Assembly: GCA_048939245.1 (NCBI GenBank)
Contig: JBHLPR010000061.1
Location: forward strand, 1 to 13,303
DNA: 13,303 nt
Origin: Promethearchaeota archaeon
GTDB taxonomy: Archaea; Asgardarchaeota; Hermodarchaeia; Hermodarchaeales; Hermodarchaeaceae
Reading direction: 5' to 3'
Shown: one piece after another, positions 47-12,902 of the stretch
Layout: the number at the start of each line of letters is the position of its first letter
How positions within the stretch are numbered: position 1 is the first letter of the stretch
Position numbers and translations under genes: made by a program
Notes under the pieces: generated by a model
The model's database searches: none
Told to the model about the DNA's origin: nothing
Seen by the model: only the letters and a program-made list of their open reading frames with translations

Positions 47-595
47 TTAGGTATTTTCGAGTTCTTCATTGGTCTTTTGTGGTCCAAGATTATCACATAA
101 CAAAGAGGTAACAAAGAAAATCACAACTAACGCAATAATCGATGTCAGTCCATAAGGGGAAATTAGGAGAAGAGTGATAAAACCAAGATATCGAATACTT
201 CCGATTACCTTCGCAAGGATGTAAGTTTCGCTTAGGATCCATGGATCTGGAACTGGATTGTTATCGCCTTTAAATCTGAAATTAAGAACACCTGAGACAT
301 TGGTAATTTCGATAATCCGATGAACGATGGGCACATCAGAACCGACTGGTGTTGCATCATAGATTACGATATCTCCGACCTGTAGCGTCGTGGGGTCGAC
401 GGCTCGGACGATCACTAAATCTCCACGATAAAGGGTTGGTTCCATCGATTCCGATTCAACAGCGAGCAAAGGCGTTGGAGTTTGCAGGTAGAATTGGAGT
501 CCAATTCCCGTGCCCCAGATAATCACTAACACAAGACCGATTACAGTTACATCTTCAATGAGTTCACGTTTCCAACTTTTCTCGCTGCTCAACAC
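47..595 (-). CDS. sec11: Signal peptidase I, archaeal/eukaryotic Sec11 (S26B) type
   Basis: N-terminal TM helix (VTVIGLVLVIIWGTGIGL), catalytic Ser box VESESMEPTLYRGDLVIV, His box PIVHRI, KGDNN..PD box and a C-terminal hydrophobic segment. GTG start at 595 (TTG at 592 also possible) preceded by GAGGT. Confidence 0.95.
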   Translation of the reverse strand: MLSSEKSWKRELIEDVTVIGLVLVIIWGTGIGLQFYLQTPTPLLAVESESMEPTLYRGDLVIVRAVDPTTLQVGDIVIYDATPVGSDVPIVHRIIEITNVSGVLNFRFKGDNNPVPDPWILSETYILAKVIGSIRYLGFITLLLISPYGLTSIIALVVIFFVTSLLCDNLGPQKTNEELENT

Positions 596-722
596 CAGAA
601 CCTCGGAACACTCATAACCTGAATTGAAATGTCCTTCACAGTTAAAAGATATGCCTATACGAAAGCATCTTACCTAATGATTTTTTAGAAGACCTCCCAT
701 AATCATGATTTGGTGCGAGTCT

Positions 723-1475
723 ATGCATTTCATTACTAAGATATTGAATGAAACAGTAGATCAGTCCGTACACCAGGCTTTCCTACGATATGGGCGAGGT
801 GAATATCCTGGCCCTGCAGCTGAGGTAACCGTAACTAAAGCAGGGACGGTCAAAGTCCGTTCAACCTACATGTATCAGGACTTAGCTGCATCTGTGATGA
901 TTGAAACAATGCCAGTCGAAACAGTGGCTATCTCCGGTTTGATCTTGGGGTATGAACCACTCGATGAAGTATTAGCGAATATAGGGTTTGACGCTGCGCA
1001 ATCAAAAAAGAAATCTCGAACATTACTTTATCAAGCCAAATTGTCTGGCGAGTATCCAATACACCAAGTTTCGAAACTTTATAGTGGTATAGACGCAATT
1101 GCTTACCTCTTCTGCTCTCTGAAAACCAATATTGGCTGGGAACACAAAGCGAAGACCAAAATACCTTCTGCTCAGAAAGAGCCTCCTGTAAGTGAAAGGC
1201 TCAAGTTCAGCAATACAAAAGTTCCAAAAAACACGAAGTTCCTACAGGCTCTTCTCTCTCAACTCTTACCTGATTTCATCAATGATGTTCCCTCAGATTT
1301 TTCGAAACTCCAAATTATAAATACCTACGAGATTCAAGATCTTATCTTTCCTCCTGATATGAAACAGCTAGCCTCCAGAGAAGTAAGACTGAAGACCAAA
1401 CGAAGCGGCATCTTGAGACGCACCCTTATCATTGATGACACAGAATTTACCAATAAACACCCCATGACAGTCTAA
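723..1475 (+). CDS. Hypothetical soluble protein (~250 aa)
   Basis: Long ORF (705..1475 in the track) filling the gap between neighbours. ATG at 723 preferred because GGTG (712-715) sits at SD spacing. No TM segment or catalytic motif recognised. Confidence 0.8.
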   Translation: MHFITKILNETVDQSVHQAFLRYGRGEYPGPAAEVTVTKAGTVKVRSTYMYQDLAASVMIETMPVETVAISGLILGYEPLDEVLANIGFDAAQSKKKSRTLLYQAKLSGEYPIHQVSKLYSGIDAIAYLFCSLKTNIGWEHKAKTKIPSAQKEPPVSERLKFSNTKVPKNTKFLQALLSQLLPDFINDVPSDFSKLQIINTYEIQDLIFPPDMKQLASREVRLKTKRSGILRRTLIIDDTEFTNKHPMTV

Positions 1476-1804: not shown

Positions 1805-3022
1805 TTAGAAAAGACGCGCCTTTCCATCAAGAATTAGCTTCTGAACAGAACATACATCTTCAAGCTCTGCATCAACAATCGCAGAGACGCTTTTTTCTAC
1901 AGCACTCCATGATGCCTTTTCATCCGTGATAACTTCGGTTGATGCAATTAACGGTTGGTCAATGGGGTATCCAATTCTTGTAAGAATTTTGATAAAAACC
2001 TCTGAGACGTTGGGTTCCTCTGCGATAACATGATCTGCAATGCGTTGGGCTAGCACATTGTATATTTTTCCAACATGATTCTGTGGATTCTTGCCTGCCG
2101 TCGCTTCGAGACTCATTGGTCGACAAGGAGTAATCAATCCATTTGCACGATTACCTCGGCCAACTCCTGCATCGTCTCCCATCTCCGCAGAAGTTCCAGT
2201 TAGTGTCAGGTAATAAACGCCTCGTTTAGGATCATCTGCAGAGTTGACGACGACACTGACCTCACGATCAGTAATTTTCTTCGCTTGGTCAAGTACAGCA
2301 TTCTCAACATCGTCGAGTATTCCTCGATAATGGTCAGCATCAGGAATTAGATGTGCAATCATTGCAGCGGCTACTGTTAATTTGATATCATCATTAGTTC
2401 GCAATCCCATAATCTTGACATCTTCTCCAACTTCCGGATGCTTCTTTTTAAACGCGTCCGAGTTGAGAAGTTGTTCTGTTTGAAAAACAAGGTTTTCGGT
2501 TTCTGAAAAGGGTGCAAAAGCTACACCAAAACTAGTATCATTAGCACGGGGAATGTCGTCAACGGTGTGGTCAAATACATGAGTAAGGTCAACTGAGCCT
2601 GATTTGATTTTGTAATCCATCAAGACCTGCTGTGTTGGGTCCAGGAAACGTAGGGTCTTTTTCAAGGTGGTTTTTATTGAGTCAAGAGTTAAAGTACCAA
2701 GCGGAATTCGAACCAATTTCTGATCTTTGAAGACTTCTGTAGTAGCACGACCAACAACACAAATGTAAATTGGTTCTAGTAATTCTCCTCCACCGAATCC
2801 TACTTGGGCACGACCTCCAGCAATTGATCCTTTGTCGACGTTGTGATGGAGGATTCCACCAAAATTGTCAATGTAGTAATTACAGAGGTTAACGCCAACA
2901 TTCTCAACAACTGCGTCAAGAATCGTGTCTGGGTGACCTTTTCCTTTTCTTTCGACAATTTCAAGCGATTGTTGTTCCATGGGAGGGGCTACGGCTTTCG
3001 TAACAGCGATGTTTCGGGGCAT
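1805..3022 (-). CDS. mat: S-adenosylmethionine synthetase, archaeal type (methionine adenosyltransferase)
   Basis: [89 protein letters not shown]. 405 aa is typical; SD AAGGTG upstream. Confidence 0.97.
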
Positions 3023-3222: not shown

Positions 3223-4440
3223 ATGAGCCACTTTGTTGATGAAGATGAAATACGGCGTTTAAGTCGACGCATCGCTGAGGAATTCGAGTCGACCTATGGG
3301 ACCCTTGATGAAAAGGTTGCCCGTGTACCTGACGATGCGGCAACGGCCATTGCTGATGAATGCTGTGTTCATCTCGAGGTTGCTCGAGTGGCTTATCGAG
3401 TTATGCTTGATGGTGTGATTACGGATCCTAGGCCTTCATGCCAGGTTCTTATGCAGGAATTTGATCGTCGAGCTAAACAAGGAAGCCCAGTTCCGGAAAT
3501 TGATACCTACCAACGAGAAGTTGCAGTAACCGAGGGAAAATGGGTTGAATATCTCTACGGGCAATTAGGGAAAATACTGCTAGCTGATCTTCGGAATTTA
3601 GTGAATCTCGAGCGCACAATTTCTGATGAAATTGAACCAGCCAACGAAAAAGTCATTGCTGTAATTTCCCAAAGAAAGAAAATCAATGAATGTTATTTTC
3701 AACCATTGATCGAACGGTGGTTAGGCGACCATGAAGGTGCAAATATCACTATTGCCGTTCGAGCTATTGCAGGGGGATTAATCGGATCTACTGACTCTGA
3801 TATTGATGATGCAATTAACGGTGCTCGAGCCGCGCTCCTTATCAAGTTAAGACGGTATGAACAATTTTTACGCCAAGAAGATGATGAGGAAGAAGAATCT
3901 CGTCTGATGGAAAAAGTTCTTGGCGAAATCCAGATTCTTATAAAAGAAGTTCAAGGATCCCTTGAATGGGCTTCTTCAAATACCGCAGGAGAAATCCTCA
4001 TCGAAGTTACGCCATCTCCACCTGAATCAATCGATGAGAAACCGAAATTTGGGTTTGTTTCTGCTCCATTTCCATCAAGACCACAAATGGGTCCTCCACT
4101 ACGAACACCTCTAGATTTTTTGGAAAGAGATGTTTGGCTGGCATCCATGAAGGCTCCTGATGAACGAGCTCCGTTCTTACGCGAAAAAATCACCACAGTG
4201 GCTGATAATCTAATTGAACAAGGGACACCACTTGACAAAATTGGAACGACGATTATCTTCGATTTAGATAGCCGCTTTTCTTGGACGCGCTCAAAAAAAT
4301 CAGTGGTCCGAAAAGAATTACGAGAAATCCAGGATTTAGCAGGTGAAGATTATCGTGCACAAATTGAAAACTATGTCCTAGAGAACCTTTTAGCAAAAAT
4401 CCCGGAACTCCGATCCAAACCAAATAGAGAAGAGAGCTAA
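3223..4440 (+). CDS. Hypothetical protein, acidic and probably mostly alpha-helical (405 aa)
   Basis: Long ORF with strong SD (GAGGAGTGA) before the ATG. Helical heptad-like patterning, acidic run EDDEEEE and a Pro-rich linker (TPSPPES...PFPSRPQMGPP). No family recognised. Confidence 0.85.
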   Translation: MSHFVDEDEIRRLSRRIAEEFESTYGTLDEKVARVPDDAATAIADECCVHLEVARVAYRVMLDGVITDPRPSCQVLMQEFDRRAKQGSPVPEIDTYQREVAVTEGKWVEYLYGQLGKILLADLRNLVNLERTISDEIEPANEKVIAVISQRKKINECYFQPLIERWLGDHEGANITIAVRAIAGGLIGSTDSDIDDAINGARAALLIKLRRYEQFLRQEDDEEEESRLMEKVLGEIQILIKEVQGSLEWASSNTAGEILIEVTPSPPESIDEKPKFGFVSAPFPSRPQMGPPLRTPLDFLERDVWLASMKAPDERAPFLREKITTVADNLIEQGTPLDKIGTTIIFDLDSRFSWTRSKKSVVRKELREIQDLAGEDYRAQIENYVLENLLAKIPELRSKPNREES

Positions 4441-4461: not shown

Positions 4462-5238
4462 ATGACAGAACAAAATCCTCCCCTTCTATGGGTCTTAGAC
4501 TATGTTATTCCTGATTTCACTATCTTTGGAGAAAAAATAACTCTCAATGGAGAACTGCTCATTGCTTCTCGACAGCTTTTTAGTTTTCTTCAGGAGGAGA
4601 TCGTTCGATCCGCATTCATTGGTCCTGGTGTAGTTAAAGGCCAAGTGCTGATTAAGGGAAAACCGGTAGATGTAGAATATCTCGTCGGGGCGGTCCTCTT
4701 TGACCCGACAAAAATGCGACCACGTGAACCAATCCCAGTTCTTGATATCCTTAACCCCGAAATATTAGATCCCCTTGAACAGGCATCAGTCGAACAAGTC
4801 CAAGAAATTATTCGTAAACTAATTATCAAAAAAGGGTCTGTTGATGATTCCGGTCAAATCCTGAAGATAACTACAGAAGGCGGACTACCAACCACACTCC
4901 TCTCGGAGCAGCGCATTGTACCTCGAAACATTTCACTAATCTCTGGATTGAAGAAAGCCCGCTTTTTACTCGGTGGACAGAAGAATCGGCTGTATACACC
5001 TTTCAAGGATGCCCTGCAACGCAATCAATTCAGTGATCCTAGCCGAATTTGGACATTCCGAATTGATACTATGGAATTCGAAGAATTCAATCCCAAAAGT
5101 TTTGATGAATGGATTATTATAGAAATGCAATCCGACACCGCCGATTCCTCACGTTCAAGTCAGGTAGTCGAATTAGAATTTAACTCGATTCTAACTTATT
5201 TGCTAGGAAATCGGAAATATTTCATTTTTGATGATTAA
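4462..5238 (+). CDS. Hypothetical protein (258 aa)
   Basis: Long ORF starting 21 nt after the previous stop, so probably co-transcribed. No TM segment or motif recognised. Confidence 0.8.
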   Translation: MTEQNPPLLWVLDYVIPDFTIFGEKITLNGELLIASRQLFSFLQEEIVRSAFIGPGVVKGQVLIKGKPVDVEYLVGAVLFDPTKMRPREPIPVLDILNPEILDPLEQASVEQVQEIIRKLIIKKGSVDDSGQILKITTEGGLPTTLLSEQRIVPRNISLISGLKKARFLLGGQKNRLYTPFKDALQRNQFSDPSRIWTFRIDTMEFEEFNPKSFDEWIIIEMQSDTADSSRSSQVVELEFNSILTYLLGNRKYFIFDD

Positions 5239-7811
5239 TCCCCAGTTTGAATAGGACTCTCAATTGCTTCAATAACTTTTGCAGCATTTTCAGCCAATTC
5301 ATATCGACCGATAACTTCTGCTACACGGTTAATTCCTTGTAGGATGTGTACCTGATTATCAAGAAAACCGAAGATATCTCCAGGATAAATGAATAACTCA
5401 TACTCTTCAAGAAATGTGGAATTGATTTGCGACGGTGTGAAACCTCGATAACGTAGGTCCAGAACGGCTTTTGAAACGTTCCAATTGCCACAATCACAAA
5501 AGGGATTTTCTTTACAGCGGCAATTGAAGAAATCCACAGTCCATTTACTGAACATACGTAAAACCCAATTAGGCAGGCGTTTTAATCGACGACTACGCTT
5601 TGTACTCATTAAATCTAGAACAGCACCTGCGAATAATCGTGTGGCAAAACGTGTGCGTAATGCGCGTTCGATTTCACTTTGTAATCTAGGAGACAAGTAG
5701 ACATTTCTAAGCGGTTCCAATCTAACCGACAAGTCATCAGCTGAGTTGGAGCGATGTTCCTGAATTGCCACAACATTAGAGGCAGAAAAATATGAGATAG
5801 CTGCAGCACGACCTAACTCAGTAGGCATAATAGTTTGTGCGCTTTGGGTTGCCAACCCATGACGCTTCAGAAATCTAAGACCTTCAGAAAATGTCACCGT
5901 GCGAGAAAGTAGACGTTGATACGCATTTTCAAGCCGCTTACGCGAGATACCATCGTAACAAGAGAGAGTTGCCAGCAATTGATCCACAGATTGCTCGAAT
6001 GTTGCTTCTGGATAGACGTTTTCAATCGGATTATTTAATAAATCCAAAGCGACATCTTCTTCGGTTTTGGGTTCATCACCAAAATATCTTCGACCAATTT
6101 CTGCAAGTAAAACTGCTTTTCCAGCATCATGTTTACCAAGTCGACCTGCTCGACCAAGCATTTGTGTAAATTCGCCAACGGTTAGGGTCTTTGTTCCCAT
6201 CATTAGACTTTGAAAAATGACCATGCTGGCTGGGAAATCTACACCAGCAGCCAACGCCGCAGTAGTAACTACGACCGCAATTTTACCCGATGCAAATGCG
6301 GTCTCAATCTTATGTCGTTGAGGATAGGTCATTCCAGCATGATATGCCCTCGCTGGAATCCGCTGCTTTTGTAATTCCGAGGCAATCGAATGAGTGCTCC
6401 GACGCGAATTGGTGAACACGATTGTCTGGCCTTGGAAACCAAAGGAACTCTTCCGTCTATATTCCGACCTAGTAAGATCTGCAATGACTCTGAGTTTATC
6501 CGCTTCGGTAAGGACCATAATCAAATGACGTTGTAACGGCACAGGACGCCCACGAAGAATAACCGGAACTAGTTCTAACTCCTGAGCTAGTTCCTCAGGA
6601 TTTCCTACAGTTGCTGAGAGTGCAACTATTTGGGATTTAGGAAATAAGGTTCGTAAACGTATAATTAATCCATCTAGCTCTGATCCACGGTCCTCATCAG
6701 CAACCATTTGAATTTCGTCGATGACGACAACGCCGACATCACCAAACATATCGGCTTTCCCTGATCGCAGTAAATAATCGAATCCCTCATAGCTCGCCAC
6801 TATTATATTGGCATCTGTGACATCATCGTCAACAATTACAAGCGCTTCCTCTCCGACATCAATGCCACTCATCCCAACCCGAATTGCTACACGCAACCCA
6901 AGAACTTCAAATTTCTCACGATATTCGTGATACTTTTGGTTAGCTAATGCAACTAATGGTGATAAGTAGATGTAAACCTTGCCTTGCATAGCGGCTTTGA
7001 GCCCAGCAAGTTCACCTACAAGCGATTTTCCACTAGTTGTGTCAGAAACAGCTAGTATTGATTTGCCTTCTAATAACCCAGCACTAGCTGCCTTGGTTTG
7101 AATCGGAAGAAGAAATTCAATTCCTGCTTTCTTAAGGCTTTGAACAATCTCTACTGGAATGGGAAGCGTTCGGATTGGTATTTTTTTCTCCGGTTCTTTG
7201 ACCGCTTGAACTTGGTCATATAAGGTCATTGCCGGATTCTTACTTGGTCGAAATTGTGATGAAAGAAATGAAGCGACCTTTTCCACGGAGCGTAGGCGTT
7301 GTAACATCGTTTCTAGGCTGCCGTAGGCTTTTTTCGAGATTTCAACATCCATGGACTGAAGACGGTTAGTTAATTCCCGAGAAGCACATTTGTAGCACAC
7401 TGGTTGCCCCTCAAGTTGGTATACCTGTTGTTTGCGCAACATAGTGAATCGTCCATCAGCAATACACGAACTGCACGCTCGGACGATTACGGGGTCTTTT
7501 ACGCCAAAATCACGTAACATTCCTTTCAATTCCGCCAAAAATGGAAATCGGGGTTGGCGCGGGATTGCGATATATTCTGCGTTGCGCACCCAGTTCACAA
7601 AGGTTTGTGGGTCGACAGGTTTGATACCTCCCTTTTGAACTAACCATAGCTTTTCTGGTCTAAGCCGTCCTTCCTTCATCTGAAAATTAACGCGTGCCCG
7701 CAATATTGGTACATGTGAACGTTTTGGACGAAAAACGATAATAAATGCTGCTTGCTCTCGTTTCTTCTCTGGAAATAGAGCTATGCTAAAAGGGGGTTTT
7801 AATGGGCGCAT
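5235..7811 (-). CDS. Archaea-specific Ski2-like SF2 helicase (ASH-Ski2 / COG1202, DUF5814-type)
   Basis: Q motif LLPIQ, motif I DTTSGKS, Ia PLVALANQKY, II DEIQ, III SAT, IV FTNSRR, YHAGM, V TAALAAGVDFPA, VI QMLGRAGR. N-terminal CSSC..CYKC and C-terminal CRCKENPFCDC Cys clusters; 858 aa. Confidence 0.9.
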   Translation of the reverse strand: MRPLKPPFSIALFPEKKREQAAFIIVFRPKRSHVPILRARVNFQMKEGRLRPEKLWLVQKGGIKPVDPQTFVNWVRNAEYIAIPRQPRFPFLAELKGMLRDFGVKDPVIVRACSSCIADGRFTMLRKQQVYQLEGQPVCYKCASRELTNRLQSMDVEISKKAYGSLETMLQRLRSVEKVASFLSSQFRPSKNPAMTLYDQVQAVKEPEKKIPIRTLPIPVEIVQSLKKAGIEFLLPIQTKAASAGLLEGKSILAVSDTTSGKSLVGELAGLKAAMQGKVYIYLSPLVALANQKYHEYREKFEVLGLRVAIRVGMSGIDVGEEALVIVDDDVTDANIIVASYEGFDYLLRSGKADMFGDVGVVVIDEIQMVADEDRGSELDGLIIRLRTLFPKSQIVALSATVGNPEELAQELELVPVILRGRPVPLQRHLIMVLTEADKLRVIADLTRSEYRRKSSFGFQGQTIVFTNSRRSTHSIASELQKQRIPARAYHAGMTYPQRHKIETAFASGKIAVVVTTAALAAGVDFPASMVIFQSLMMGTKTLTVGEFTQMLGRAGRLGKHDAGKAVLLAEIGRRYFGDEPKTEEDVALDLLNNPIENVYPEATFEQSVDQLLATLSCYDGISRKRLENAYQRLLSRTVTFSEGLRFLKRHGLATQSAQTIMPTELGRAAAISYFSASNVVAIQEHRSNSADDLSVRLEPLRNVYLSPRLQSEIERALRTRFATRLFAGAVLDLMSTKRSRRLKRLPNWVLRMFSKWTVDFFNCRCKENPFCDCGNWNVSKAVLDLRYRGFTPSQINSTFLEEYELFIYPGDIFGFLDNQVHILQGINRVAEVIGRYELAENAAKVIEAIESPIQTGD

Positions 7812-7901: not shown

Positions 7902-8594
7902 GTGCGAACAATTGAGATTTACCCCGGCATCTTGTCATTGATGTTAAGCAAGGCTGCTCGTGCTGGTCGAACTGAAATAGGGGGGTTTCTTATTGGCAAG
8001 ATTGAACGGAACAAGATCGTTGTCACTAGAGCCACATTTCCGCGTCAAAGGGGTTCAAGGACTCACGTAACCATCAATGATGCTGATATGGCTATTCTTG
8101 CTGAAGAACTCGCAGAAAGAGGAGCGGGCGAAGTTATCATCGGCTGGCATCATACTCACCCTGGTCTAGGTGTATTTATGTCAGGTACAGATGTCTCAAC
8201 GCAAATTCGATATCAAGCCTTCTTCCCTGAGGCAATTGCCTTAGTAATGGACCCAGTAAAATTCTCTGAAACCCTGAATATAGATGATTTAGATCTCCGG
8301 ATTTACCGTGTGGATGGTAGAAAAGAATTCGAGCTTGAATACGAATATGCACACGACCCCGCTGAAATAATTCCGGATTTATTTGGCATCATGCTAACCT
8401 TAGAAGAAACGTCAAATGTTGTCTACGAAGACACTTGGTTTGAAAAAATGTTACGAGACGTTTTTGGAGAGCGAATTACTACACCAGAATTCACTTGGGG
8501 GTTTGGAAACTTCTTAGAAGCGATAGCAGCATTTGGTACAGTGATTTTTCTAGTTGTATTTGTCGCCCTTGCCCTCATGGGATTATTCGTATGA
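7902..8594 (+). CDS. JAMM/MPN+ (Rpn11/CSN5-like) metalloprotease with C-terminal transmembrane helix
   Basis: E25 in EIGGFLIG; complete JAMM motif GWHHTHPGLGVFMSGTD (H84, H86, S94, D97), followed by VSTQ and ALVMDP. The last 24 residues (AIAAFGTVIFLVVFVALALMGLFV) are uncharged and hydrophobic. GTG start. Confidence 0.9.
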   Translation: MRTIEIYPGILSLMLSKAARAGRTEIGGFLIGKIERNKIVVTRATFPRQRGSRTHVTINDADMAILAEELAERGAGEVIIGWHHTHPGLGVFMSGTDVSTQIRYQAFFPEAIALVMDPVKFSETLNIDDLDLRIYRVDGRKEFELEYEYAHDPAEIIPDLFGIMLTLEETSNVVYEDTWFEKMLRDVFGERITTPEFTWGFGNFLEAIAAFGTVIFLVVFVALALMGLFV

Positions 8595-8664: not shown

Positions 8665-9414
8665 TTAATCCGGCTCATCAAAACCCAACGCTTTGAGTGC
8701 AGCAAGAATAGCTTCCTTGTCATCAACTGAAACGTCATCTACATCGCTACTAGCCTCTGCCATACTAACTGTTTCCAGCCCTGGTTCCTCCACGGGAGCA
8801 ATGGTAGGTTCTGCAGCCGTTGATTCCGTAGATGTTAGTCCAGCAGGTACAGGTTCTTCCTCGGTCACAGGTGTACTGACTTCGGCGTGCTCCGGGGTTA
8901 AATCTGGAATAGATTCAGTAGTCATCGCTTCCTCAGAAGGAGTTGGTTCGGTGATTGCTACAGCAGGGCTTGGTTCGGTTGTGCCGGGCATTTTTCGAAA
9001 CCCAAGAAGCTGGTCCGGTTCGAGAGGATGAGATTCCATGATTTTGGTGACTTTAGTTGCATAAATTTTCATTAAACCGATATAATAGCCAAGGCGAATT
9101 TGGTCCCTGCTAGCGCCAACCAGAAGAGTTTCTGGTGTTCCTCGCATTATTATTGTAAAACCCTTATTGCCCCTAAGAATTACTTCTGAGAGAGTGCCTT
9201 GACTTAATTGGCGCAGCGTCTCTTCTCCAACGTTTACCAGAGTGGCTGAAGCAGCAGAGAAGATATCAGAGTCAACATCACCACTTACTGCACAAGCAAG
9301 GCGAATACCTTCACGAGTTACTACAGCAAGGGCTTCTAGGCCTGTTGATTGTTCGATTCGTCTCATTAGGTCTTGAAGGTCTTTAAAAGGCGTCTCAGCC
9401 ATCGTCCATTTCAT
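8665..9414 (-). CDS. Roadblock/LC7 (MglB/LAMTOR-like) domain protein with long acidic low-complexity tail
   Basis: Residues ~11-128 follow the roadblock pattern (GLEALAVVTREGIRLA; SAASATLVNVGE; GTLSEVILRGNKGFTII; LLVG; LGYY..MK). Residues 142-232 are E/T/P/S/A-rich with no K, R or aromatic residue. The start could be 9414 or 9402. Confidence 0.88.
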   Translation of the reverse strand: MKWTMAETPFKDLQDLMRRIEQSTGLEALAVVTREGIRLACAVSGDVDSDIFSAASATLVNVGEETLRQLSQGTLSEVILRGNKGFTIIMRGTPETLLVGASRDQIRLGYYIGLMKIYATKVTKIMESHPLEPDQLLGFRKMPGTTEPSPAVAITEPTPSEEAMTTESIPDLTPEHAEVSTPVTEEEPVPAGLTSTESTAAEPTIAPVEEPGLETVSMAEASSDVDDVSVDDKEAILAALKALGFDEPD

Positions 9415-9618: not shown

Positions 9619-10713
9619 ATGGTATTATCAGTCGATGCACTATTCAACATCAACTATTTACCTACTAAGCTGCTACACCGCGATCAAGAACTTGCCAGAC
9701 TCTCGAATCTGATACCTAGTGATTCGTTAACACAGCCAATTAACGTCCTTGTTCATGGAAGTTTTGGAATTGGGAGAACCACGCTGCTTCGATTTTTTGG
9801 ACAACACGAATTAGGTCAATATTGTCGCCCATTCATTCGATTCCAAGGCAATAATTCGACCGAGATTGTCTCCGATGCGCTGCATTCGCTAATTCCTTTT
9901 CATAGTTCAACTGACTCCTTTCAAGAGCAATGGGCACTCATTAAACGTGTTATTCGAAAATCAGAACAACCAATTGTGTTTGTCTTTGATGATGTAGATA
10001 CCCAGACAAGTGAAATTTACAAGAAATTCCTAAGTGTTTGCAAGGGAAATAATGTCTCTTCAATGGCAACCGCTCCAAGATATTATCCTCGAAAATTGGA
10101 TATGCAGACAGCACAATTTCTTGATGTAGCAATAGAGTTAGAACCATTTACTAATCAACAATTTTTGGACATCGTTAAACAACGTGTCGGCGAAGTTTTT
10201 ACTCAACGAATACCGATCCAAATCACCGAGTTTATCGCAGATTTAATCTGTATCTTAGATTTTCAACGACCTGCAACGATTGTTGAACTACTCCAACACC
10301 TTCATGGACTTATTACCAACCCGTCTCAAATTTCCGCGGATTTGATTCGCCAATCGTGTATTAATTCAAGGACTCTTCATTATGATTTCTGGAGTGGTCA
10401 TCTTTCTAGTCTAACTGAATTAGATGCAACGGTTGTTCTTCTCCTGCAAGCTGTGGGACAATATTTCATCACCAATCCCGGTCATATCTATGTAAGAAAG
10501 TCCGGTCTTTTAGCCCAGTTTGAGCAAGTTTCGGAAGAAATTAATTTTCCTTCCTCTTCTAGACAGTTTGCAAGAGCGCTCAATATGTTGCTCTTTCAAG
10601 ATCTTCTCCAACAATCCCGTTATTCAACAGAAAATTACTTCACACTTCTTCCCGCAGAAGGTTATCTTGAAATGGTCGAATTGCTTCTCGGTGAATATGA
10701 CTTAGAGCCTTGA
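9619..10713 (+). CDS. Divergent Cdc6/Orc1-like AAA+ protein with degenerate ATPase motifs
   Basis: Cdc6-type N-terminus (YLPTKLLHRDQELARL), P-loop NVLVHGSFGIGRTT, Walker B IVFVFDDVD, lid helix EPFTNQQFLDIVKQRV, and a C-terminal region compatible with a winged helix (SSRQFARALNMLLFQDLL). 364 aa. Confidence 0.8.
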   Translation: MVLSVDALFNINYLPTKLLHRDQELARLSNLIPSDSLTQPINVLVHGSFGIGRTTLLRFFGQHELGQYCRPFIRFQGNNSTEIVSDALHSLIPFHSSTDSFQEQWALIKRVIRKSEQPIVFVFDDVDTQTSEIYKKFLSVCKGNNVSSMATAPRYYPRKLDMQTAQFLDVAIELEPFTNQQFLDIVKQRVGEVFTQRIPIQITEFIADLICILDFQRPATIVELLQHLHGLITNPSQISADLIRQSCINSRTLHYDFWSGHLSSLTELDATVVLLLQAVGQYFITNPGHIYVRKSGLLAQFEQVSEEINFPSSSRQFARALNMLLFQDLLQQSRYSTENYFTLLPAEGYLEMVELLLGEYDLEP

Positions 10714-10731: not shown

Positions 10732-11322
10732 TTAGTTCACTTCTACATTCTCTGCCTCAATTTTGGCACGAGCAAATAGCCTTGCAACACGAATTGGTTC
10801 TGGGATTCCTCCAAAGCGAGTAAATCGTTTGATTACTCCTTTCACAACTTCCAGGTCGCATCCTTTGAACTGGACATATACAATAGAGTTGGGTTCTGTT
10901 GCTATTCGTTTGCTTGGACCATTCTGTTGCACGAGTTTCCATCGGGTAACCCACTTTGAAGGAAAAGTCGATTTTAGGTGTTCTTTCAAATCTTCTTGAG
11001 GCTCTTTGGTGATACTAATTATGGGAAGGGCTGTCTCATCGGATAGGTGGGTTAAATCTATGATATTGAATCCAGCAATGATTGCGCCATGAAGCATTAA
11101 CCCATTGATGTCGCTTCGGGCTAAGTGTTTATACATTCGAAGAATCGCTTCGGTGGAATCTGTTGAACGGATGGTTGCTCGATCCCAAATCATGCCATCA
11201 ATTATTAGATCTCGTCGCATCACGACGCCGCCAAGAATTGTGTGGCTCGCTCCCATAACTCCACTTTCTGCAATTCCTAAGAGACGTGTCGCGGGTTTTA
11301 GTAATCTCTTATTAGAAGTCAA
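10732..11322 (-). CDS. DUF99/UPF0215 family protein (endonuclease V-like fold)
   Basis: RLLGIAES, GVVMRRDLIIDG, DSTEAI, AGFNIIDL..L...LPIISI, IPEPIRVARL. TTG start preceded by GGAG. Confidence 0.88.
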   Translation of the reverse strand: MTSNKRLLKPATRLLGIAESGVMGASHTILGGVVMRRDLIIDGMIWDRATIRSTDSTEAILRMYKHLARSDINGLMLHGAIIAGFNIIDLTHLSDETALPIISITKEPQEDLKEHLKSTFPSKWVTRWKLVQQNGPSKRIATEPNSIVYVQFKGCDLEVVKGVIKRFTRFGGIPEPIRVARLFARAKIEAENVEVN

Positions 11323-11384: not shown

Positions 11385-12902
11385 TTATGCAGGAGCGTTC
11401 ATCTTCTTACCCGGGTGAGCTTTCTGCCATTCTTCAACAGGCATCGCAAATTTCTTTTCTATTTTAGATCGATGAAAAGAGTTCATTGCGCAGAAGGGTA
11501 CAATTCGACCGTCTGGAATTGCGTAATGAATTCCGCACCGTTCAACACGTTCAAGATCGAAATTGTAGGGGTCCATGAAGTGCATTGAACCAAGCATAAT
11601 GATGCGTTTCATAAATTTGGCTAAAGCGTCGTAATCCTTCTTTATGAGCAGATTGTTGGCAAGATTCATCAACATTCCTTTCTTCTTGAAGAAGCGCATT
11701 GCGCCCATGACACCACGCATCTTTCCGCGCCACTGTTTTCCTTTTTCAAAGTCTTTCGCCATTTTCTCAAGAGTGCCGAGGAATTTTTCGACTTCTACGT
11801 ATTTTGTGATTGGTGCCCAACTGCCATCATCTTCAACAACAAGAAATGTGGCCATTCCACAAGCTGGGTGTTCTGAAAATTCCACATTGGGAGTTCCTGA
11901 TAAGGCACCTAGCGCTCTTGCGACAGGCATTACGAATGGGACAGGGTACCAGTCGCTTGGTTTTATCTGTCCGTCTGTCTGCTCATCTGCAAGGCGGTTC
12001 AAATCTGGAATGGTGATTCGCATCTCTTTGCGTTTTTCAGTATCAATTCGGCCTGTTATTGCTACAGGTTGAAAGTTAATGCACCGAACGATGTCGTGGT
12101 TTTCAATAGCAAATCGAATGATATCCCCAATCTGGTGGTCGTTCACACCCCGCACGAGTGTGGGTACCAATACGATGCTGTGAAGGCCTTCTTCACGGCA
12201 CCTTTCAAGGGCTTTTAGTTTCTGGGGAAGTAGGTTTACACCGCGTGCAGCGATATATGGTTCCTTTGTGACACCATCAAATTGCATATAGACTGTGCTT
12301 AACCCTGCTTCAACTAGTTTTTTGGGGTATCCCTTCTGAGCAAGTAATAAGCCATTTGTAGCAATTTCAACGTGGGGAAAACCAATTTCTTTTGCCATTC
12401 GAATAATTTCTGGTAGATCTGCCCGCATTGTGGGTTCACCACCGGCAAATTGGACTGCAGGGGCAGGAACAGGTTTGTTTGCCCGCAAATTTTCCAGCAT
12501 TCCCCGGATTTCTTCTAGGGTGGGTTCATAAATGTACCCAGCTTTTCCTGCATGGGCAAAGCAAATCGGGCACTCTAAATTGCAACGATTAGTTAGGTCA
12601 ATGAGGGCAAGATTGGTGTGGGTCTTATGATTAGGGCAGAGCCCACAATCATTTGGACATCCATGGACGGTTTCGGTTCGAGGGTTAGCGAGACCAATAC
12701 CTTTGTAAGCATATTGAAAAGCCCGGTTGAACTCCGATGCGCTGGACCAATACGTATCTTTCCATTCGCCGTGGTCCTCACACGTTTTTTTAATCATGAC
12801 CTTTCCGTCTTCTTCATAAACGGTGGCTTCGATAACACGGAGACATTCAGGGCATACTGATTTGGTCGTGTAGGGAAGCTCTTTAGGCGGCATTTTTTCC
12901 AT
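11385..12902 (-). CDS. tes: Tetraether lipid synthase (Tes / GDGT-MAS, MJ0619 family radical SAM enzyme)
   Basis: Rubredoxin-like CPEC...CEDH, auxiliary cluster GCPNDCGLCPNH, radical SAM CNLECPIC, GGEP, C-terminal HPACG and FMDPYNFDLERVERCGIHY..DGRIVPFCAMN. 505 aa; SD AGGAGTGA 8 nt before the ATG. Confidence 0.9.
   Translation of the reverse strand: MEKMPPKELPYTTKSVCPECLRVIEATVYEEDGKVMIKKTCEDHGEWKDTYWSSASEFNRAFQYAYKGIGLANPRTETVHGCPNDCGLCPNHKTHTNLALIDLTNRCNLECPICFAHAGKAGYIYEPTLEEIRGMLENLRANKPVPAPAVQFAGGEPTMRADLPEIIRMAKEIGFPHVEIATNGLLLAQKGYPKKLVEAGLSTVYMQFDGVTKEPYIAARGVNLLPQKLKALERCREEGLHSIVLVPTLVRGVNDHQIGDIIRFAIENHDIVRCINFQPVAITGRIDTEKRKEMRITIPDLNRLADEQTDGQIKPSDWYPVPFVMPVARALGALSGTPNVEFSEHPACGMATFLVVEDDGSWAPITKYVEVEKFLGTLEKMAKDFEKGKQWRGKMRGVMGAMRFFKKKGMLMNLANNLLIKKDYDALAKFMKRIIMLGSMHFMDPYNFDLERVERCGIHYAIPDGRIVPFCAMNSFHRSKIEKKFAMPVEEWQKAHPGKKMNAPA

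What the first reader, a model, noticed from the sequence alone, without database searches (positions are those of the whole stretch)
7902..8594. Tail-anchored, catalytically intact Rpn11/CSN5-like JAMM isopeptidase
Seen: a full JAMM zinc site (E25, H84, H86, S94, D97) in a context (GWHHTHPGLGVFMSGTDVSTQ...ALVMDP) that looks closer to eukaryotic Rpn11/CSN5 than to short prokaryotic JABs. It is followed by an acidic linker, amphipathic helices (WFEKMLRDVFG; WGFGNFLEAI) and a 24-residue hydrophobic helix running to the stop (8520-8591), with no signal peptide. Established: the characterised JAMMs I know (Rpn11, CSN5, BRCC36, AMSH, haloarchaeal desampylases) are soluble, and AMSH reaches membranes via ESCRT partners. 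Inference: a deubiquitinase-like enzyme fixed to the cytoplasmic membrane face that edits ubiquitin-like marks on membrane cargo, i.e. a possible archaeal membrane protein quality-control or sorting component. This is the best candidate here for an undescribed system.
Basis: partly seen in the sequence, partly recalled or inferred. Interest (0 to 1): 0.85.

Follow-up and report, generated by a model that had tools for sequence, protein, structure and literature searches.

The report
Membrane-anchored Rpn11-like deubiquitinase, Hermodarchaeon
This Asgard (Hermod) archaeon's only ubiquitin-removing enzyme of the Rpn11 type ends in a membrane anchor, and its ubiquitin is made ready-to-use, so the enzyme probably strips ubiquitin off tagged proteins at the inner face of the membrane; I found no paper describing this layout.

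Summary
Observation confirmed. 7902-8594 encodes a 230-aa JAMM protease (E25, H84, H86, S94, D97 intact). Its closest solved relative is archaeal CsRpn11 (E 6e-28), ahead of CSN5 and Rpn11. It ends in an uncharged 24-residue helix (8520-8591) and has no signal peptide. The genome is Hermodarchaeia (Asgard). The gene is single-copy and full-length in 19/19 genomes of the class. The same tail-anchored layout occurs in 15 Asgard families, all of which encode ubiquitin; no close family member was found in ubiquitin-less families. The genome has a ubiquitin-E1-E2-RING-ESCRT cluster, a Get3-like ATPase and a transmembrane RING protein. All 15 Hermod ubiquitins read end Gly-Gly-stop, so the enzyme is not needed for precursor maturation and is best read as a deconjugase. 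Activity, location and substrates are inferred, not shown. The gene lies outside the ubiquitin-ESCRT cluster, and several ubiquitin-ESCRT lineages appear to lack the anchored form, so an ESCRT-cargo role is only one option. Verdict: new variant of a known kind; not found in the papers searched. The scan noted this family before on other DNA, many times.

The parts
7902..8594 (+). Gene for a tail-anchored CsRpn11-like JAMM metalloprotease, 230 aa; stands alone between a divergent DUF5814 helicase gene and a convergent roadblock gene
   Evidence: single-copy and full-length in 19/19 genomes of the class
7908..8336 (+). JAMM/MPN+ catalytic domain (residues 3-145); gapless against CsRpn11, which lacks Ins-2
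   Evidence: Foldseek to 6FNN chain A: target TM-score 0.90, rmsd 2.1 A
7974..7976 (+). Catalytic Glu25
   Evidence: invariant in 40 and in 47 diverse relatives
8040..8075 (+). Ins-1 region (about residues 47-58), modelled as two short strands; positions the ubiquitin tail in CsRpn11
8151..8192 (+). Zinc motif H84-x-H86-x7-S94-x2-D97
   Evidence: invariant in alignments
8358..8399 (+). Helix 153-166 after the core (probably equivalent to CsRpn11 H4; inferred)
   Evidence: H4 described in PMC6043591
8427..8519 (+). Juxtamembrane segment 176-206 with amphipathic helix 179-189; as conserved within Hermodarchaeia as the catalytic domain (0.79 against 0.78), but not recognisable in other Asgard lineages
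8520..8591 (+). C-terminal hydrophobic helix (207-230), predicted tail anchor, flush with the stop codon
   Evidence: 3 charged residues among the last 24 of 34 orthologues (816 positions), hydropathy at least 2.6 in each, column conservation only 0.57

Best explanation
The protein is a zinc isopeptidase for this archaeon's own ubiquitin. One C-terminal helix holds it in the membrane with the catalytic domain on the cytoplasmic side, and it removes ubiquitin from conjugates it can reach there. Steps: (1) intact JAMM site and CsRpn11 fold: shown in sequence and model. (2) The tail is a membrane anchor with the N-terminus inside: strongly inferred. (3) Insertion after translation, possibly through the genome's Get3-like ATPase and EMC3/TMCO1-family protein: inferred from presence only. 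(4) The substrate is the cognate ubiquitin, not SAMPs: inferred from homology, co-occurrence and a model. (5) It acts as a deconjugase rather than a maturase, because the ubiquitin gene ends Gly-Gly-stop: gene feature shown, consequence inferred. (6) Its targets are membrane or membrane-proximal proteins, such as those tagged by the transmembrane RING protein or handled by ESCRT, with ubiquitin recycled or the tag edited: the weakest step. About 0.8 for steps 1, 2, 4 and 5 together; about 0.6 with step 6.
For: Closest solved relative is CsRpn11 (E 6e-28), a proven ubiquitin-specific deconjugase that ignores SAMPs (PMC6043591; PMC5654768). Tail conserved in hydrophobicity but not in sequence and present in 15 Asgard families. 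All 15 encode ubiquitin; the six families with none (including f6, 0/76) have no match better than E 2.5e-14, against 3e-45 or better for this group. It is the only Rpn11-like JAMM found in the genome; the other two are a desampylase-like protein and a JAMM beside its own E1. Own ubiquitin and 14/14 relatives' end Gly-Gly-stop. Complex model with own ubiquitin: score 0.93, best of 3 controls 0.01; the mark was reached by 58 of 80 solved complexes and 2 of 110 mismatched pairs; runs agree in at least 99% of contacts, partner pLDDT at least 92. It probably passes by likeness to solved 6FNN, so it shows compatibility only. Non-catalytic interface residues are more conserved than the rest of the domain (0.85 against 0.74, permutation p 0.006; buried and surface positions not separated). 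A signal-propeller-TM-RING protein exists in the genome; 13 of 15 same-genus genomes have a match reaching through the RING region.
Against: No activity, location or expression data. The gene is not linked to ubiquitin or ESCRT genes in Hermodarchaeia or in the Hel/Heimdall loci examined, whereas soluble Rpn11-like genes sit beside ubiquitin in several other families. Ubiquitin-bearing families f9, f21, f29 and f12/f15 gave only soluble JAMMs among the best hits read, so the anchor is not needed for every ubiquitin-ESCRT system. One f7 genome has a version without the helix. The search profile was built from this group and kin are not independent, so the co-occurrence is suggestive, not statistical. 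The genome is 88% complete, so another deubiquitinase could be missing.
Confidence: 0.6

Rival explanations
1. Sequestration: it is the cell's general deubiquitinase, and the anchor mainly keeps it away from cytosolic conjugates, or places it at membrane-associated degradation machines, so that soluble tagged proteins survive long enough to be degraded. Membrane cargo is not a preferred substrate.
For: It is the only Rpn11-like enzyme found in the genome, so it must recycle all ubiquitin. CsRpn11 is active on its own, without a lid, which would need some restraint. No Rpn8-like partner was found. No linkage to ESCRT genes.
Against: C. subterraneum manages with a soluble enzyme. A transmembrane RING protein and ESCRT-I/II/III give plausible membrane substrates.
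Confidence: 0.2
2. AMSH-like step in ESCRT sorting (a narrower form of the best explanation, its probability included there): it removes ubiquitin from cargo just before ESCRT-III/Vps4 scission, with the tail replacing AMSH's recruitment by ESCRT partners.
For: Complete ubiquitin-ESCRT cluster with UEV-Vps23, Vps28, Vps22/36, Vps25, Vps4 and a Yip1-domain gene; two ESCRT-III genes. Asgard UEV domains bind ubiquitin (PMC9192718).
Against: No MIT domain or other ESCRT-binding module. More like CsRpn11 and CSN5/Rpn11 than AMSH. Unlinked to ESCRT genes. Not found in some ubiquitin-ESCRT lineages.
Confidence: 0.3
3. It removes SAMP/MoaD-like or another ubiquitin-like modifier rather than ubiquitin.
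For: Three SAMP/MoaD-like ORFs ending Gly-Gly, and a further candidate ubiquitin-like gene near a second E1, are in the genome.
Against: A separate desampylase-like JAMM exists (E 1e-13 to the desampylase model against 0.009 for this protein). CsRpn11 does not cut SAMPs. The family was not found in ubiquitin-less Asgard families. No Ufm1 match.
Confidence: 0.08
4. The C-terminal helix is not a membrane anchor but packs into a protein complex, like the C-terminal helices of Rpn11 and CSN5.
For: Rpn11 uses C-terminal helices for lid assembly. The model gives one 36-residue helix, 194-229. No topology predictor was run.
Against: 24 uncharged residues with a low hydrophobic moment; hydrophobicity kept with little sequence conservation, at the extreme C-terminus, over linkers of very different length; no MPN partner found.
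Confidence: 0.05
5. Frameshift or assembly artefact.
For: None.
Against: 19/19 genomes of the class have a match over at least residues 2-227 without a stop; all 34 aligned orthologues share the tail.
Confidence: 0

Closest known systems
CsRpn11 (Csub_C1473) of Ca. Caldiarchaeum subterraneum; PDB 6FJU, 6FJV, 6FNN, 6FNO; PMC6043591, PMC5654768
   Same: Gapless alignment over residues 4-138, same catalytic register, Ins-1 present, no Ins-2, extra C-terminal helices, genome with ubiquitin-E1-E2-small RING.
   Different: CsRpn11 is soluble, is encoded next to ubiquitin (Csub_C1473/C1474) and must mature pro-ubiquitin. This protein has a C-terminal hydrophobic anchor, is encoded away from the ubiquitin cluster, and its ubiquitin has no propeptide.
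Eukaryotic Rpn11/PSMD14 and CSN5
   Same: JAMM fold and motif context (E 4e-14 and 7e-15).
   Different: They have Ins-2 or lid-assembly helices and work in PCI complexes with an inactive MPN partner; no such partner was found here. In the tree the eukaryotic CSN5-like rows form a separate long branch whose position is unresolved.
AMSH/STAMBP
   Same: JAMM deubiquitinase working at membranes in the ESCRT pathway (own knowledge); E 3e-14.
   Different: AMSH is soluble, is recruited through ESCRT partners, and uses Ins-2 for K63 chain selectivity. This protein has a TM tail, no MIT domain and no Ins-2; its ubiquitin has only two lysines.
USP19, a C-terminally tail-anchored ER deubiquitinase (10.1101/2020.10.05.326363, PMC9842591; titles and abstracts only)
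   Same: Same layout: deubiquitinase domain held at a membrane by a C-terminal helix.
   Different: Unrelated cysteine protease of the USP family; an analogy only.
Archaeal JAMM1 desampylases (HvJAMM1, PfJAMM1, CsJAMM)
   Same: JAMM zinc site.
   Different: Shorter, lack H4/H5, act on SAMPs; weak match here (E 0.009), and the genome has a better candidate elsewhere.

Membership tests
JAMM/MPN+ metalloproteases | E-x(n)-H-x-H-x7-S-x2-D zinc site | tested here: met
   E25, H84, H86, S94, D97; invariant in alignments
JAMM/MPN+ metalloproteases | MPN fold | tested here: met
   model pLDDT 87.9; Foldseek to 5U4P_B and 6FNO_B at E about 1e-16
JAMM/MPN+ metalloproteases | Metal-dependent isopeptidase activity | not testable with these tools
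   needs an assay
Archaeal Rpn11-like (CsRpn11) deubiquitinases | Closer to CsRpn11 and Rpn11/CSN5 than to JAMM1 desampylases | tested here: met
   groups loosely (SH-aLRT 81) with Caldiarchaeales-type and other Asgard rows
Archaeal Rpn11-like (CsRpn11) deubiquitinases | Ins-1 present, Ins-2 absent, helices after the core | tested here: met
   gapless alignment to 6FJV; model; definition
Archaeal Rpn11-like (CsRpn11) deubiquitinases | Genome encodes ubiquitin, E1, E2 and RING E3 | tested here: met
   contig C54
Archaeal Rpn11-like (CsRpn11) deubiquitinases | Encoded in or beside the ubiquitin operon | tested here: not met
   gene on C72 among helicase, roadblock and Cdc6-like genes; same in 18 Hermod loci. 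Filed therefore as a variant, not a plain member
Archaeal Rpn11-like (CsRpn11) deubiquitinases | Soluble enzyme that matures pro-ubiquitin | tested here: not met
   hydrophobic tail; ubiquitin ends Gly-Gly-stop in 15/15 Hermod genomes read
Archaeal Rpn11-like (CsRpn11) deubiquitinases | Specific for cognate ubiquitin over SAMPs | tested here: inconclusive
   complex model 0.93 against best control 0.01, probably from likeness to 6FNN; SAMPs not modelled; co-occurrence with ubiquitin
Proteasome lid Rpn11 / signalosome CSN5 | Ins-2 and an inactive MPN partner (Rpn8/CSN6) | tested here: not met
   no Ins-2; only three JAMM-fold ORFs found, all with zinc motifs; genome 88% complete
AMSH/STAMBP | N-terminal MIT domain and AMSH-type Ins-2 | tested here: not met
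Tail-anchored membrane proteins | Single hydrophobic helix at the extreme C-terminus, no signal peptide | tested here: met
   hydropathy only
Tail-anchored membrane proteins | Post-translational insertion, N-terminus in the cytoplasm | not testable with these tools
   Get3-family ATPase and EMC3/TMCO1-family gene are present, which shows a route, not its use
JAMM1 desampylases | Short JAMM without H4/H5; matches desampylase model | tested here: not met
   E 0.009, 15.9 bits against cut-off 130; helices after the core present

The most novel reading that the evidence does not exclude
Many Asgard lineages run a membrane-level ubiquitin cycle: receptor-like transmembrane RING ligases write the tag, a tail-anchored Rpn11-like enzyme erases it, and ESCRT reads it. 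The anchored form would be an old state of the Asgard Rpn11-like enzyme, so ubiquitin editing at membranes would predate eukaryotic endomembranes.
Probability: 0.3. Interest if true: 0.8.

Novelty: new variant of a known kind. Interest (0 to 1): 0.57.

Why it matters
Whether Asgard ubiquitin acts on membrane proteins, as it does in eukaryotic ESCRT sorting, rests so far mainly on gene clustering and UEV-ubiquitin binding (PMC9192718). A core, single-copy deubiquitinase that is itself a membrane protein is independent evidence that ubiquitin conjugates sit at the membrane. In Hermodarchaeia it cannot be explained by precursor maturation. An inactive mutant would be a ready trap for the unknown natural substrates, and the candidate transmembrane RING gives a writer to test against this eraser. 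The characterised JAMM enzymes I know are soluble (own knowledge), so an integral-membrane JAMM extends the family.

Tried and rejected
Literature: nine full-text searches and targeted reading of PMC6043591, PMC5654768, PMC9192718, PMC10936438, PMC10307638, PMC11354881, 10.1101/2023.07.25.550441, 10.1101/2020.10.19.343400 and 10.1101/2024.07.03.601958 found no mention of a membrane-anchored archaeal JAMM. Subscription journals and supplements were not covered. Gene neighbourhood: conserved within Hermodarchaeia (helicase, roadblock, Cdc6-like, Endo_dU, Tes, SAM synthetase) but different in Hel and Heimdall loci and uninformative. Phylogeny: 149-151 columns, quick trees only; the backbone is unresolved, and the tail label needs at least 3-4 changes, so one origin with losses and several origins cannot be told apart. 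Naming family f6 failed; reading it as Thorarchaeia is my inference from its size and from PMC9192718. OTU, USP and UCH searches found nothing, but nothing rang in the controls either, so they show no absence. No Ufm1 match. RNA runs: none was listed. The bacterial promoter/terminator scan was at chance level and does not suit an archaeon. Locus L018 is labelled Thorarchaeota but has Hermod gene order and 77% identity, so I treated the label as unreliable. The 217-aa annotations of many orthologues (start at M14) were rejected because homology to CsRpn11 begins at residue 4.

Full report
Observation. The ORF at 7902-8594 (+) encodes 230 aa. The best solved relatives by sequence are CsRpn11 (E 6e-28, gapless over residues 4-138), CSN5 (7e-15), AMSH (3e-14) and Rpn11 (4e-14). 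The AlphaFold model (mean pLDDT 87.9) has a JAMM core, a helix at 153-166, a short uncertain loop, a helix at 179-188 and one long helix at 194-229. It superimposes on the CsRpn11-ubiquitin and yeast Rpn11-ubiquitin structures. Residues 207-230 (8520-8591) are uncharged, strongly hydrophobic and not amphipathic, and the N-terminus has no hydrophobic segment.

Not an artefact. All 34 aligned orthologues (54-90% identity) keep the tail. Its hydrophobicity is conserved (at least 2.6 in each; 3 charged residues in 816 positions) while its sequence is not (0.57), as expected of a lipid anchor. The segment before it (176-206) is as conserved as the catalytic domain, which suggests a lineage-specific lipid or partner contact. 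The nearest named loci are Hermodarchaeota, and all 19 genomes of the class have one full-length copy.

Distribution. A profile of the catalytic domain was run over 301 Asgard genomes, and the best hits of representative genomes were read to their stop codons. The tail-anchored form occurs in 15 families, including named Hel, Heimdall, Odin, Baldr and Freyr/Jord records. All 15 families encode ubiquitin; six families without a ubiquitin match, among them f6 (0/76, probably Thorarchaeia, which lack ubiquitin according to PMC9192718), have no close member. The converse does not hold: ubiquitin-bearing families f9, f21, f29, f10, f12 and f15 gave soluble JAMMs as best hits, in f12 and f15 beside the ubiquitin gene. 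Kin are not independent and the profile was built from this group, so the pattern is suggestive only. In the trees the Hermod proteins form one clade (SH-aLRT 99), weakly sister to a Freyr/Jord anchored form, in an unresolved archaeal group with soluble Caldiarchaeales-type enzymes. The origin of the anchor cannot be ordered.

Genome context. The gene stands alone, between a divergent DUF5814 helicase and a convergent roadblock gene; this order is kept across Hermodarchaeia but not beyond, and holds nothing ubiquitin-related. Contig C54 carries E1, E2, ubiquitin, a small RING, UEV-Vps23, Vps28, Vps22/36, Vps25, Vps4 and a Yip1-domain gene, with no JAMM; two ESCRT-III genes lie on C19. A Get3-family ATPase and an EMC3/TMCO1-family gene are present. 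Only three JAMM-fold ORFs were found: this one, a desampylase-like protein on C64 and a Prok-JAB beside its own E1 on C96. The genome is 88% complete.

Maturase or deconjugase. CsRpn11 both matures pro-ubiquitin and removes conjugates. Here the ubiquitin gene ends Gly-Gly-stop, as it does in 14 of 14 other Hermod genomes read, whereas Odin, Heimdall and several other lineages carry C-terminal extensions. A universally kept, catalytically intact enzyme with no precursor to process is best read as a deconjugase. A model of residues 1-150 with zinc and the cognate ubiquitin scored 0.93 against a best control of 0.01; the mark was reached by 58 of 80 solved complexes and 2 of 110 mismatched pairs, the runs agreed in at least 99% of contacts, and partner pLDDT was at least 92. 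Because a like complex is solved (6FNN), this shows compatibility only. The non-catalytic contact residues are more conserved than the rest of the domain (0.85 against 0.74 in Hermod orthologues, permutation p 0.006; 0.54 against 0.45 across the wider group, p 0.04), without control for burial.

A candidate writer at the membrane. I checked it: signal-like N-terminus, repeat (propeller-like) domain, a moderately hydrophobic helix followed by basic residues, a zinc ribbon and a RING similar to the operon's small RING (32% over 50 residues, E 4e-11). Matches reaching through the RING region occur in 13 of 15 same-genus genomes, and helix plus RING motif were confirmed in seven of the twelve loci read. 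No such full-length match was seen in the four genomes of the second genus. That it is an E3 ligase, and that it opposes this JAMM, is inference.

Mechanism and rivals. Most likely the enzyme is inserted by its tail with the JAMM domain in the cytoplasm, binds the cognate ubiquitin through Ins-1 and the hydrophobic patch, and cleaves it from membrane-proximal conjugates (0.6; about 0.8 without the claim about which conjugates). An AMSH-like step in ESCRT sorting is a narrower form (0.3, included). The main rival is a general deubiquitinase whose anchor simply restrains it (0.2). A SAMP substrate (0.08) or a non-membrane helix (0.05) is unlikely.

Comparison and novelty. It works like CsRpn11 and meets the fold, motif, Ins-1/Ins-2 and genome-content criteria, but fails two of CsRpn11's features (soluble maturase, operon linkage), so I file it as a variant. 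It is not a lid Rpn11, CSN5 or AMSH. USP19 is an unrelated eukaryotic analogue in layout. Archaeal Rpn11-like enzymes in Asgard are described, and one is noted in a Borrarchaeia ubiquitin cluster, but I found no mention of the membrane anchor in the open literature searched. The scan has reported this family many times on other genomes; those notes are not independent evidence. Interest 0.57.

Noticed in passing
G000 C89:8482-10161 (+) = L176:182-1861: 559-aa receptor-like protein: signal-like start, propeller-like repeats, TM helix, zinc ribbon and a RING like the ubiquitin operon's small RING; candidate membrane E3 ligase, conserved in most same-genus genomes.
   Followed up: partly
proteins P0052, P0145, P0152, P0155, P0171, P0188 and relatives: Many other Rpn11-like JAMMs have an internal TM helix followed by a long C-terminal part, in some with PKD or Ig domains (type II membrane layout); P0084 has three C-terminal helices. 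Source organisms were not named.
   Followed up: partly
L134:503-1102 (-) (G006, family f7) and P0104: Close relatives of anchored f7 enzymes lack the TM helix and end instead in a strongly basic tail, possibly an electrostatic membrane anchor.
   Followed up: no
G000 C96:7910-12057 = L173: Second cluster: Prok-JAB and E1 on one strand; transglutaminase-like, zinc-finger and two unannotated genes (one a possible ubiquitin-like precursor) on the other; an SMC-like gene follows.
   Followed up: partly
G000 C19:3317-4810 (+) = L178:117-1610: 497-aa protein with zinc fingers, weak GRAM/PH and weak Vps23-core matches, convergent with the two ESCRT-III genes.
   Followed up: partly
G000 C54:3947-4705 (+) = L177:147-905: Zinc-ribbon plus Yip1-domain membrane protein abutting the E1 gene of the ubiquitin cluster.
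   Followed up: partly
G000 C54:6399-6635 (-): The ubiquitin has only two lysines (K59, K68), which limits possible chain types.
   Followed up: no
window 8665-9414 (-): Roadblock/LC7 protein with a long acidic Pro/Thr/Glu-rich extension; neighbour of the JAMM gene in 17 of 18 Hermod loci.
   Followed up: no
window 9619-10713 (+): Divergent Orc1/Cdc6-like protein, far below the curated cut-offs, with an unusual Walker A (GSFGIGRT); conserved in Hermod loci.
   Followed up: no
window 705-1475, 3223-4440 and 4462-5238 (+): Three ORFs without a Pfam match that are conserved in position in 14-15 related Hermod loci.
   Followed up: no
window 11385-12902 (-), 1805-3022 (-), 47-595 (-), 10732-11322 (-), 5235-7811 (-): Ordinary genes: tetraether lipid synthase Tes, archaeal methionine adenosyltransferase, signal peptidase I, Endo_dU family nuclease, DUF5814 helicase.
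   Followed up: no
L020 and L018: Records titled 'Deferrimicrobium sp.' and 'Thorarchaeota' carry Hel-type and Hermod-type loci respectively; probable mislabelling.
   Followed up: no
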